Below are positions 37,301 through 40,300 of a stretch of 64,000 bases of DNA, piece by piece. Numbering within the stretch: the first letter of the stretch is position 1; the number at the start of each line of letters is the position of its first letter. The position numbers were made by a program. The stretch comes from Podarcis tiliguerta (lineage: Eukaryota), in assembly GCA_965153285.1 (NCBI GenBank), contig OZ229112.1, one strand, 5' to 3'.

Positions 37301-40300
37301 GCAATATCATTTTCCATTGAGAATTTGGCGGAAGGAAATCAGATTATACAGCAAGCAATAGATAGGTGTCATAGGAGTCAGGTCTGACAGCATTAACAGC
37401 CCAGACAGCTGATGTTATCAGCACATCTCTAAGCTACATACTAAATTGGAAGATTTAGAATGTGTATGTGCTGTTAGAGTGTGTTCTAGAGGATTTCCTG
37501 TTACACTAATTATGTCTTTCTCCCATTTTCCATCTCTTGTCAGTTCTTCCTGGGAAATCAGGTATAAACAGTGGAATGTGTTATGGAGTTCCTAGTATTC
37601 TTTTAATACGTCATCATTTCAGCTTGCAGTGGTTTGTCCTCCCCTCCCCTTTCACCCTAAGCTAATTCATTGTTGGTCAGCTACGATGCCTCTCTGGAAA
37701 TGCTTAACTGGTTTCCTTGTTTTGGGAATTGCCTTTTTTGCCTGCTGCTGCCTCATTAATGAGATTACTTTTAAGGGAACCAGATAATAGACTGCATTAA
37801 TTGGTTGTGCAAATGCCTTTGGGCATTCTTCCTGTGGTTTACACACTGGAATTGCTGTTTAGATTTTACTGTGATTCATATATGGAGTATCCTTTAAATT
37901 TCCATGCTGCATTCCACTGTAAGATGATCCAGGACCTTGCGCTTTTTAAAGCTTTTGCCAAAAACAAAAAAGGACATTCAATTAGAAATTGAATAGGGAA
38001 ATTGCATTTCCATAAAAACCATCACTGCAAATTGGGCACCATGCAGACTGCATCCCAGGTAAAGACTGCCTATTTCTGTTTTGTTTCGTGTGCAGTCCAT
38101 CATTCTTCTTGCTTCTTAGAAGTTAGTACAGTGGAACCTCGGTTGTTGAATACCTCCGTTGTCATACGTTTCGGGTTCCGAACGCCGAAAACCTGGAAGT
38201 AACTGCTCTGGTTTTCGAATGATTTTTGGAAGCTGAACGTGCTATGCGGCTTCCGTTTTGAGTTTCCCTATTGTATTGAGGGTTCAGTTTTCGGTTTTCG
38301 AACATTTCGGACGTCGAACGGTCTTCTGGAACGGATTATGTTCGAAAACCGAGGTTCCGCTGTATCATCCTTTCTTAGAATCTATTCCCTGTGGAACCTA
38401 ATAGTAAAGGAAGATTATATAGATTTTTAGAATGAGATTACTCAACATTATGCAGTGTAAAAAAATCCCATTTGTGATTTAAAGTTTCACCTACTCTGAC
38501 ATGAGTACAATAAGCTAAATTTTCCTTCTCATGCCATCCATGCTAATACATTATATAATCTTAACTTTTGCCTTTGTTTAGCCCACTTTGCTCCCAATTC
38601 TAAAGCCACTCCCATTTTGCATGATACGATGTTCTTGATTTCCTAGATGATGTAGTGAAGGGAGTTTGTTCTCCTGCTTTCTTCAGGAGGGTGGGTGTGG
38701 CTTTGCCTCAGCACCATTAAATGAATGAGACAGGAAGCACTGGAGCTGCAAGTGGCAATGTTGAAGCATTGTGCCGTCTGGAAAATGGGGAGAGAAATGT
38801 TCCACTCCCAAATGGGAGTTGGGGGACTGGGGCAGGTTGCTTACTCCTGACTGCAGCAGAGTGACACCTGAGATTAGGGATCATTTGGCACAACAGTAGT
38901 AGAAGTTAATTACCTAAATGGGCTCGGGGAAAGAAGAACTGGGGGGCAAAGGGTAAGTGCCCCAAAATATCATAACGGTGACAGATGTGGTTTCCCAAAA
39001 CGATCTCCCAGGCTTTATTGGCTCAAAGGGAAATCTCCCCAGACTTATTCAGGAGCTGCCATATATAGTGGAGCACATCCCCCCCCAAAAAAGGACCATC
39101 AGAAAATACAGTTGATGCAGCATAAAATCTTGTGAGTAAAAAAAGAAAGAAAGAAAATATTCAGCCACTAATTACTTTGGGTATTCTCAATTTGTTAACT
39201 TTATATGCTTTCCTCTTGTTTGGTTCCCAAAAGTAACATGCCTTTCTCCCTTTGCTTAAGCTGTGTCTCGGTAAGGTACATGAAAAATTAAACTCAGTTA
39301 CATGATTTGGCTGTAAAGCAAGTAGTGCTTACCTTAGCTTCTTTCCAAGGATGAAATCCAGCATTTTATTCTAGTGTGATCTTTGGGAAGAACTCCCCAT
39401 AGGTACCCACATGAAGAATCTGGTCTTACATATCACAGTAATCCGAGCTAAGAAGTGCTGAATCCCTCTGACTATTTTTTTCTCCCAGGGAACAGGGTGG
39501 CTCTAAGATCCTACCTGTAATGGGGGATCAGATACAACCTTTAAATCCCAACCAATGCAAAAGACCTCAATCTTCCATATTATCAATCCAACTCATCCAA
39601 ATCTCTTGTCCACCTACGACAAGAGATTTGGATGAGTTGGATTGATAATATGGAAGATTGAGGTCTTTTGCATTGGTTGGGATTTAAAGGTTGTAACCCT
39701 GCAGTCTGCTAGTGAGCTTTTCAGATTGCACAGTACAGTTAGAAGTGAGGCAGCCATGGCTTGTCCTGCTGTTTCTCCCCTGGTCCTGTTGTCCTTCCCT
39801 TCCTCCACTTGCTGCAATGGTCAGGCCTGCAGGTGTGCTGTGCAGCAGTTTGGGGTGAATCACAATGGCAGGAAAAGAAAAGAGCAGAACACGTTCTTAT
39901 TACAGTGGGGAATGTAAATGAGGAGAGAAGCAGGTTTGGGATATTTCCCCCTTCCCCTCTGCAGCCAACCCTCCTTTAAATCTGCTACACAGGGTTGGAC
40001 CCTCCATGGCAGATTTAGTGAGACTGTGGGGGGGTCTGCAGCGGGGAAGGGGGAAATATCCCAAACCTGTTTCTCTCCTCATTCTGCTGATGGAAACCTT
40101 ACTGCCAGCTGAGTCAGGTCTCTCAGTTACAGTCTGACAACATTAGCTATGATTCATAGCGTTTTGCAATGGTAGTGTAAGAAATCCACTGGAACTATTG
40201 GAGACACTTTATGTATTAGTGATTTGATACTAATGTCATGGAAAGGAGATTTGAAATGTGCATATAAAGAGTGAAGGAGAAACTCAGGTGGCCATCCTTA

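What the first reader, a model, noticed from the sequence alone, without database searches (positions are those of the whole stretch)
39533..39695. Perfect 78-bp/78-bp intronic palindrome with a 7-nt loop and no recognisable TE
Seen: zero mismatches over 78 bp, complex sequence, one copy in the window, inside the DST intron after the GAR microexon. Known: such palindromes extrude cruciforms and decay quickly. As pre-mRNA they are substrates for ADAR and Drosha/Dicer, and replication template switching can create them in one step. Inference: a very recent (possibly polymorphic) template-switch duplication or an actively homogenised hairpin, so a candidate nascent intronic miRNA/endo-siRNA locus. 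It begins and ends with TA, so a young TA-targeting foldback MITE is the alternative.
Basis: partly seen in the sequence, partly recalled or inferred. Interest (0 to 1): 0.75.

Follow-up and report, generated by a model that had tools for sequence, protein, structure and literature searches.

The report
Perfect 163-bp hairpin palindrome in intron
A flawless 163-base DNA palindrome sits deep in an intron of a cytoskeletal linker gene and is most likely a young copy of a small hairpin-shaped jumping element rather than a new gene, though the deciding test (counting copies in the whole genome) could not be run.

Summary
Arms 39533-39610 and 39618-39695 are 78 nt, 100% complementary, with a 7-nt centre. 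The sequence is complex and has no other copy in the window. It lies 3,095 nt into the 8,227-nt intron that splits the GAR (GAS2) domain of a DST-type spectraplakin gene on the + strand.

It is not an isolated oddity. The window holds nine whole-length self-complementary elements at 62-100% identity. One is an unrelated palindrome with 80-nt arms at 94% and also a 7-nt loop, at 15336-15502. Four of the 12 inverted repeats in the window are TA-bounded (P=0.005). The focal element ends TA|CA...TG|TA.

Best reading (about 0.5): a young, fully palindromic, TA-targeting MITE-like element. Main rival (about 0.3): a one-step local inverted duplication by template switching or fold-back.

It is not a known RNA family. 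Its 78-bp stem and 7-nt loop are not pri-miRNA geometry.

"Perfect" only bounds the age to under about 10-38 Myr, using assumed mutation rates.

Genome copy number, orthologous introns, read support and small-RNA data could not be examined with the tools available.

The parts
39533..39610 (.). Left arm of the palindrome (78 nt; A28 C25 T22 G3). It begins TA|CAACC.
39611..39617 (.). Unpaired centre of 7 nt (CACCTAC). Its last C, with the first G of the right arm, forms the only CpG of the element.
39618..39695 (.). Right arm (78 nt), the exact reverse complement of the left arm. It ends GGTTG|TA.
39533..39534 (.). Left TA, a candidate target-site duplication of a TA-targeting transposon. TA is self-complementary, so it is counted within the arms.
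   Evidence: TA frequency in the window 0.064 and TACA 0.0046
39694..39695 (.). Right TA, the candidate second copy of the target-site duplication.
36364..36438 (+). Context: 75-nt GAR microexon ([25 protein letters not shown]) with AG acceptor and GTAAGT donor. The host intron starts at 36439.
   Evidence: (GAS2 PF02187, E=3.2e-5, profile 7-29)
44666..44783 (+). Context: next exon, the main part of the GAR domain ([39 protein letters not shown]). The host intron ends at 44665.
   Evidence: (GAS2, E=1.3e-20, profile 29-68)
15336..15502 (.). Comparison element: an unrelated 167-bp palindrome with 80-nt arms at 94% (5 mismatches) and a 7-nt loop. TA occurs only next to its left end.
39917..40083 (.). 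Comparison element: a decayed 167-bp whole-length palindrome (79% to its own reverse complement), 221 nt downstream of the focal one.
40407..40659 (.). Comparison element: a decayed whole-length palindrome (75% over 253 bp). Its core 40495-40569 has 32-nt arms at 94% and an 11-nt loop.

Best explanation
The palindrome is a real sequence feature. It is most likely a young insertion of a fully palindromic, non-autonomous, TA-targeting (Tc1/mariner-type) MITE-like element. That element would consist of two 76-nt terminal inverted repeats with 5'-CA...TG-3' tips around a 7-nt centre, bracketed by a duplicated TA.

Shown: the anatomy, the TA|CA...TG|TA ends, the intronic position, and the company of other palindromic and TA-bounded elements of graded age.

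Inferred:
- It arrived by cut-and-paste through a transposase supplied in trans.
- It belongs to a family with further genomic copies.
- It is under about 10-38 Myr old.
- In DST pre-mRNA it folds into a 78-bp perfect duplex. That duplex leaves with the intron and, meanwhile, is a good substrate for promiscuous ADAR editing.
- It is not a canonical Microprocessor substrate.
- At the DNA level it can extrude a hairpin or cruciform on single-stranded or supercoiled DNA, and is therefore mildly fragile.
For: 1. The ends are TA|CA...TG|TA. TA has frequency 0.064 in the window and TACA 0.0046, so a randomly bounded duplication would rarely end this way.

2. In the whole window, 4 of 12 inverted-repeat pairs begin and end with TA: the focal one and those at 43371-43614, 36036-36280 and 57698-57784. 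The expected number is 0.76 (binomial P=0.0054). TA-targeting elements are therefore the main identifiable source of inverted repeats here.

3. The TA|CAGTGGTACCTCGG family has at least 5 pieces in the window.

4. The window carries nine whole-length self-complementary elements of 116-278 bp at 62-100% identity. This is a graded age series of which the focal one is the youngest. Recurrent insertion followed by decay would give such a series.

5. Lizard genomes are known to carry such elements. [quoted passage not shown]

6. A precedent for the architecture is human Made1: two 37-bp inverted repeats around 6 bp, 'nearly perfect palindromes', 7,850 annotated sequences (PMC1784062, passages).
Against: - No second copy, whole or partial, exists in 64 kb. 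The one terminal-anchored weak match (19630-19660, 25 of 32 identities, E=0.065) has no inverted partner within 3 kb.
- There is no sequence similarity to the other palindromes or to the TA|CAGT family. The tip reads CAAC, not CAGT.
- The two palindromes closest in geometry (15336-15502 and 39917-40083) have TA on one side only. Not every palindrome here fits the TA-MITE model.
- The shared geometry of about 80-nt arms with a 7-nt loop between unrelated sequences hints at a sequence-independent process.
- The TA/CA argument is post hoc, because several other transposon signatures would also have been accepted.
- No transposase domain was found in 10 of 10 intron ORFs tested. A MITE would not encode one in any case.
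- The G-depletion of one arm (3 of 78) is unexplained.
- The defining test, dispersed copies in the genome, could not be run.
Confidence: 0.5

Rival explanations
1. A one-step local inverted duplication. During replication or repair the nascent strand folded back, or switched to the opposite strand, and copied about 78 nt of adjacent sequence. It then returned to its template, creating a perfect hairpin in place. One arm is ancestral intron and the other is new. The element is not mobile.
For: [quoted passage not shown]
- The element is single-copy in the window, with unique flanks.
- A second, unrelated palindrome has the same geometry: 80-nt arms, 7-nt loop, 94%. It lacks a two-sided target duplication. 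A sequence-independent process would produce this.
- 4 of 9 palindromic elements cluster within 2.2 kb of one intron.
Against: - The TA|CA...TG|TA ends would be a coincidence (TACA frequency 0.0046).
- 78 nt is longer than the 30-55-nt stems that the cited study accepted as new hairpins. That range was its filter, not a physical limit.
- I saw no microhomology at the junctions (reading).
- Two such palindromes in 64 kb would imply a very high genome-wide rate for a rare class of mutation.
Confidence: 0.3
2. An assembly or library artefact: a fold-back chimera fixed in the consensus, absent from the animal's genome.
For: - Perfect identity of the arms is what an artefact would give.
- The authors of the cross-genome inverted-repeat survey acknowledge that misassemblies can introduce inverted repeats (PMC13155455, passage).
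- No read data could be examined.
Against: - The element lies in the middle of 64 kb of gap-free sequence (0 N), not at a contig end.
- The arms are short and the boundaries sharp.
- Palindromes of the same size but 94% and 79% identity lie in the same window. They cannot be artefacts, so such structures really exist in this genome.
Confidence: 0.05
3. A hairpin RNA gene (miRNA or endo-siRNA precursor) whose perfect pairing is kept by selection or by arm-to-arm conversion. This could hold whichever way the hairpin arose.
For: - It lies on the transcribed strand of a long gene and has an extremely stable RNA fold.
- Palindromic MITEs have given rise to miRNA families, as with Made1 and hsa-mir-548 (PMC1784062).
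- It is one of three strong hairpins within 1.2 kb.
Against: - Rfam gives 0 matches at gathering score in the whole window.
- The 43 sub-threshold matches in 39400-40700 go to many unrelated hairpin families, plant ones among them, and on both strands. The best is MIR4227 at 79.5 bits against a gathering score of 100. This shows generic stem scoring, and mir-548 is not among them.
- The 78-bp stem and 7-nt loop differ from the about 35-bp stem and >=10-nt loop preferred in processing.
- Functional miRNA hairpins normally carry mismatches.
- No expression data are available.
Confidence: 0.05

Closest known systems
Made1 / hsa-mir-548 (human Hsmar1-derived palindromic MITE)
   Same: Almost the whole element is two inverted repeats around a tiny centre: 37+6+37 bp in Made1 against 76+7+76 bp plus TA here. 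It forms a very stable hairpin as RNA and is often intronic (PMC1784062, passages).
   Different: The arms here are twice as long. No sequence relation was found: mir-548 is not among the 43 Rfam matches at E<=10. Family copy number is unknown here, against 7,850 annotated Made1 sequences. No small-RNA evidence is available.
Non-autonomous Tc1/mariner families of lizards (TcMar-N families of Anolis carolinensis)
   Same: TA target duplication, inverted repeats of very variable length and sequence, some families young, and no similarity to a resident autonomous element (PMC3014272, section 9).
   Different: Membership of any named family is untested. The paper's tables with element lengths were not seen.
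Template-switch mutation hairpins (Monttinen, Frilander and Loytynoja)
   Same: A perfect reverse-complement repeat next to its source, made in one event and located in transcribed DNA.
   Different: The cases accepted there have 30-55-nt stems and are inferred from outgroup sequences. Here the stem is 78 nt and no outgroup could be examined.
Human PATRRs (palindromic AT-rich repeats)
   Same: A near-perfect palindrome, sometimes intronic, able to form cruciforms, with unrelated sequences at different loci (PMC7999016, passages).
   Different: PATRRs are about 200-595 bp and more than 90% AT. This element is 163 bp and 63% AT.

Membership tests
TA-targeting (Tc1/mariner-type) MITE | Terminal inverted repeats | tested here: met
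   78-nt arms at 100%; 76 nt if the TA is counted as target duplication.
TA-targeting (Tc1/mariner-type) MITE | TA target-site duplication on both sides | tested here: met
   TA at 39533-39534 and 39694-39695. Chance of TA is about 0.064. Because TA is self-complementary, this counts as one coincidence, not two.
TA-targeting (Tc1/mariner-type) MITE | Multiple dispersed copies forming a family | not testable with these tools
   There are 0 further copies in the 64-kb window. No eukaryotic genome collection was available. A family of 1,000 copies in a genome of about 1.5 Gb would give only about 0.04 copies per window (my estimate).
TA-targeting (Tc1/mariner-type) MITE | Termini related to those of an autonomous transposon or a described family | not testable with these tools
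   No TE consensus library was available. No similarity to the TA|CAGT family of the window. A 15-nt terminal string was found in 0 papers.
TA-targeting (Tc1/mariner-type) MITE | Empty site in a related genome or allele | not testable with these tools
   No orthologous sequence was available.
Template-switch (fold-back) inverted duplication | Reverse-complement copy adjacent to its source | tested here: met
   The arms are separated by 7 nt. A palindromic MITE meets this feature equally well.
Template-switch (fold-back) inverted duplication | Ancestral state with one arm only, contiguous with both flanks | not testable with these tools
   This needs the orthologous intron of related species.
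Known miRNA or other RNA family (Rfam 15) | Match at the family's gathering score | tested here: not met
   0 matches in the whole window. At E<=10, the 43 matches are all below gathering score.
Canonical pri-miRNA | Stem of about 35 bp with an apical loop of 10 nt or more | tested here: not met
   The stem is 78 bp with no mismatch and the loop is 7 nt. The criterion is quoted from the passage.
Canonical pri-miRNA | Discrete small-RNA products of about 22 nt | not testable with these tools
   No expression data were available.
PATRR | Several hundred bp and more than 90% AT | tested here: not met
   163 bp and 63% AT. The definition is from the passage.

The most novel reading that the evidence does not exclude
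This genome has a recurrent, sequence-independent process that makes inverted duplications of a set size: arms of about 80 nt, a 7-nt turn, and 163-167 bp in all. It would be something like fold-back copying within an Okazaki-fragment-sized or chromatosome-sized stretch of single-stranded DNA.

The focal palindrome would be its newest product. The unrelated palindromes at 15336-15502 (94%) and 39917-40083 (79%) would be older products. The 39.5-41.7 kb stretch of the intron would be a hotspot.
Probability: 0.1. Interest if true: 0.7.

Novelty: new member of a known kind. Interest (0 to 1): 0.3.

Why it matters
If it is a young MITE copy, it is ordinary. It would be one more marker of recent DNA-transposon activity in a lizard genome, useful at most as a presence/absence marker or as a natural ADAR substrate inside a highly expressed gene.

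It would matter more if it proved single-copy and polymorphic. A perfect 78-bp-arm palindrome of complex sequence lies in the far tail for vertebrates. In a survey of perfect inverted repeats with spacers of 8 nt or less, the longest human one has 140-bp arms, and long ones are disproportionately AT/TA (PMC13155455, passages). It could then show a large template-switch event caught before any decay, and let hairpin birth, editing and fragility be followed in a natural population.

Tried and rejected
- **Mitochondrial (NUMT) origin of the G-poor arm.** The arm is open in one frame under tables 1 and 2, but that is expected without G. phmmer of the 28-aa reading against PDB chains gave 0 hits at E<=10. 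Dropped.
- **tRNA- or snoRNA-sized retro-copy with snap-back.** No tRNA hit. Only weak snoRNA hits far below gathering score (U8 15.3 bits, SNORD90 25.7 bits against 41). Dropped.
- **Internal direct repeats in the arm as paired transposase binding sites.** Best alignment scores 9, and 370 of 2,000 shuffles do as well. Dropped.
- **Relationship among the palindromes.** Smith-Waterman scores are no better than shuffles for 6 of 6 pairs of arms. For focal against 15336, the score is 8.0 and 421 of 500 shuffles do as well. The MAFFT alignment is unconvincing.
- **Weak terminal match at 19630-19660.** No inverted partner. Treated as chance.
- **Transposase remnants nearby.** 10 of 10 intron ORFs gave no Pfam family.
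- **Viral hairpin terminus (parvovirus-like).** There is no adjacent coding capacity. Not pursued.
- **Size coincidence of 163, 167 and 167 bp.** These are only 3 of 9 self-complementary elements, which range from 116 to 278 bp. Noted but not relied on.
[quoted passage not shown] 2). It is not expected here.
- **The one permitted genome-contig scan was not used.** That collection holds only bacteria and archaea.

Full report
**The observation**

Reading 39300-39950 and the inverted-repeat search confirm the finding as described. Arms 39533-39610 and 39618-39695 are 78 nt each and 100% complementary, with 7 nt (CACCTAC) between them. The element begins and ends with TA. The next bases outward (A and A) cannot pair, so the ends are sharp.

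As RNA the region folds at -146.7 kcal/mol, against -46.4 +/- 4.6 for 200 dinucleotide-preserving shuffles (z = -21.8, 0 of 200 as stable). As DNA the 163 nt fold at -92.5 kcal/mol (z = -27.5, 0 of 200). Chance is excluded.

blastn with 7-nt words finds only the element and its mirror image in the 64 kb. The best unrelated hit is 45 nt at 71%. Both 200-nt flanks are unique. Tandem Repeats Finder reports nothing.

One qualification applies to "complex sequence". The left arm is A28 C25 T22 G3. Only 159 of 63,923 windows of 78 nt are as G-poor, and most of those lie in low-complexity tracts. The only CpG is at the junction of loop and right arm.

**Context**

The window has no N. I do not take it for human. 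Its species is not given, and I did not try to establish it.

The + strand carries a spectraplakin gene with, in order:
- spectrin-repeat exons;
- two EF-hand exons (35455-35667 and 35777-35950);
- a 75-nt exon, 36364-36438, matching GAS2/GAR profile positions 7-29;
- an exon, 44666-44783, matching positions 29-68;
- a Ser/Arg/Gly-rich terminal exon with an SKIP motif (52278-52661).

These rest. That the tail looks like DST rather than MACF1 is my recollection of the two C-termini, not a test.

The host intron is 36439-44665 (8,227 nt). The palindrome starts 3,095 nt after the donor site and ends 4,971 nt before the acceptor. It is therefore far from either splice site.

**What surrounds it changes the picture**

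A window-wide search found 12 inverted-repeat pairs. The second best is at 15336-15415 / 15423-15502: 80-nt arms, 94% identity (5 mismatches), and again 7 nt between the arms. It has no sequence similarity to the focal element (Smith-Waterman 8.0 against a shuffle mean of 9.1; 421 of 500 shuffles as high).

A minus-strand self-comparison kept 47 HSPs, of which 11 rows are self-mirroring. They describe nine elements of 116-278 bp at 62-100% identity, plus one microsatellite. Four of the nine (39533, 39917, 40407, 41548) lie in 2.2 kb of this one intron.

A sliding RNA-fold scan of 2,553 windows of 200 nt (mean -45.2, sd 12.5 kcal/mol) puts the four strongest at 39501, 39901, 15326 and 40426.

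The focal palindrome is thus the youngest member of a graded series of hairpin-shaped elements, not a solitary anomaly.

**Which mechanism**

Evidence for transposition:
- The ends read TA|CA...TG|TA. TA has frequency 0.064 and TACA 0.0046 in the window.
- Four of the 12 inverted repeats begin and end with TA: the focal one, 43371-43614, 36036-36280 and 57698-57784 (expected 0.76; P = 0.0054).
- One of these, TA|CAGTGGTACCTCGG..., is a family with at least five pieces in the window.
- In the lizard Anolis carolinensis, 17 non-autonomous Tc1/mariner families share a TA duplication. Their inverted repeats vary greatly in length and sequence. They total about 17,500 copies and include young families (PMC3014272; abstract, passages and section 9 read).
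- Human Made1 shows that a Tc1/mariner-derived MITE can be almost entirely palindromic, with 37+6+37 bp (PMC1784062, passages).

Evidence against transposition, or for a local duplication:
- No second copy exists in the window.
- The tips resemble no other element here.
- The two palindromes most like it in geometry have TA next to the left end only.
- Identical geometry in unrelated sequences is not what unrelated MITE families predict.
- Template switching can create perfect hairpins in one event, even without prior similarity (10.1101/2023.04.19.537475, passages). The hairpins accepted in that study had 30-55-nt stems.

I weigh these at about 0.5 for a MITE-like insertion, 0.3 for a local inverted duplication, 0.05 for an artefact and 0.05 for a selected RNA hairpin. 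The remainder is open.

**How young is "perfect"**

With no differences in 78 pairs, P(no change) = exp(-2 x 78 x mu x t). For assumed neutral rates of 0.5, 1 and 2 x 10^-9 per site per year, the 95% upper bounds are 38, 19 and 10 Myr, and the 50% points are 8.9, 4.4 and 2.2 Myr. These rates are my assumption and come from no call.

The absence of CpG within the arms lowers the expected decay further. On the same scale the 94% palindrome dates to about 16-65 Myr. "Very recent, possibly polymorphic" is therefore possible but not required.

**RNA-level role**

Rfam reports nothing at gathering score in the whole window. With permissive settings, 39400-40700 gives 43 sub-threshold matches to many unrelated hairpin families, plant ones among them, usually on both strands. 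The best is MIR4227 at 79.5 bits against a gathering score of 100. mir-548 is absent. The other palindrome behaves in the same way (20 matches, none at gathering). This is generic scoring of a long perfect stem.

The geometry (78-bp stem without mismatch, 7-nt loop) departs from the about 35-bp stem and >=10-nt loop preferred by the miRNA pathway.

From established knowledge rather than any call, a long perfect intronic duplex is a classic substrate for promiscuous ADAR editing. In some cell types it may also be a Dicer substrate for endo-siRNAs.

SOS splicing, which recognises paired transposon repeats in mRNA, was seen for Tc1 in exons and a 3' UTR but not in introns (PMC12779559, passages).

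**DNA-level behaviour**

Longer, more similar arms and shorter spacers raise hairpin and cruciform formation and fragility. Eukaryotic lagging-strand single-stranded zones are 100-200 nt, enough to expose this centre (PMC7999016, passages).

In a survey of perfect inverted repeats with spacers of 8 nt or less, the longest human one has 140-bp arms, and long eukaryotic ones are disproportionately AT/TA (PMC13155455, passages). A 78-bp, 63% AT, non-repetitive example is therefore unusual for a vertebrate unless transposons supply it.

**What stayed unchecked**

- No eukaryotic genome, read set, small-RNA set or TE consensus library was available.
- The genome-contig collection holds only prokaryotes and was not scanned.
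Tables S3 and S4 of PMC13155455 (the longest inverted repeats) could bear on how rare such an element is. So could the Anolis paper's tables 1 and 2 of family lengths, which are main-text tables that I did not see.
- A 15-nt terminal string of the element occurs in none of the searchable papers.

**Verdict**

It is probably an ordinary young palindromic MITE-like insertion. A genuine minority chance remains that it is a freshly made local inverted duplication. The unrelated twin in the same window, with the same arm and loop sizes, is the most curious loose end.

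Noticed in passing
window 15336-15502: A second large palindrome, unrelated in sequence: 80-nt arms at 94% (5 mismatches), also a 7-nt loop, 167 bp in all. RNA fold is -123.7 kcal/mol (z = -18.3). TA occurs only next to its left end. It lies in another intron of the same gene.
   Followed up: partly
window 39476-41750: A cluster of strong hairpins in one intron: the focal palindrome, 39917-40083 (167 bp, 79% self-complementary), 40407-40659 (75%) and 41548-41663 (68%). 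Three of the four most stable 200-nt folds of the whole window lie within 1.2 kb.
   Followed up: partly
window 39533-39610: One arm is almost free of G (3 of 78; binomial about 2e-5), and its partner is almost free of C, yet it is not a tandem repeat. The cause is unknown. A G-to-A hypermutated or deaminated source is a speculation that I could not test.
   Followed up: partly
window 36036-36280, 57698-57916, 38127-38364, 53978-54064, 59199-59269: A family of TA-flanked elements with termini TA|CAGTGGTACCTCGG, 60-80% alike. They look like old Tc1/mariner-type MITEs.
   Followed up: partly
window 43371-43614: Another TA-bounded inverted-repeat element (termini TACCGTATTTTTCGCTCTATAAG..., 29-nt arms at 86%, 186 nt between). 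It is single in the window.
   Followed up: no
window 41320-41700: A GC-rich block with two similar units, each containing a ...GCCAGTG.GGCAGGAAA.GCTCCCTA..GTGCA.GC... motif. It is probably part of a repeat element and also scores as a self-complementary segment (41548-41663).
   Followed up: no
window 29976-30108; 42594-42671; 61090-61181: Simple-sequence tracts: a 5-nt-period pyrimidine-rich repeat near 30.0 kb, and trinucleotide (AAT/ATT-type) runs at 42.6 kb and 61.1 kb.
   Followed up: no
window 19630-19660: A 32-nt stretch matches the first 32 nt of the focal arm, starting exactly at the terminal TA (25 of 32 identities, E=0.065). It has no inverted partner within 3 kb and is probably chance.
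   Followed up: yes
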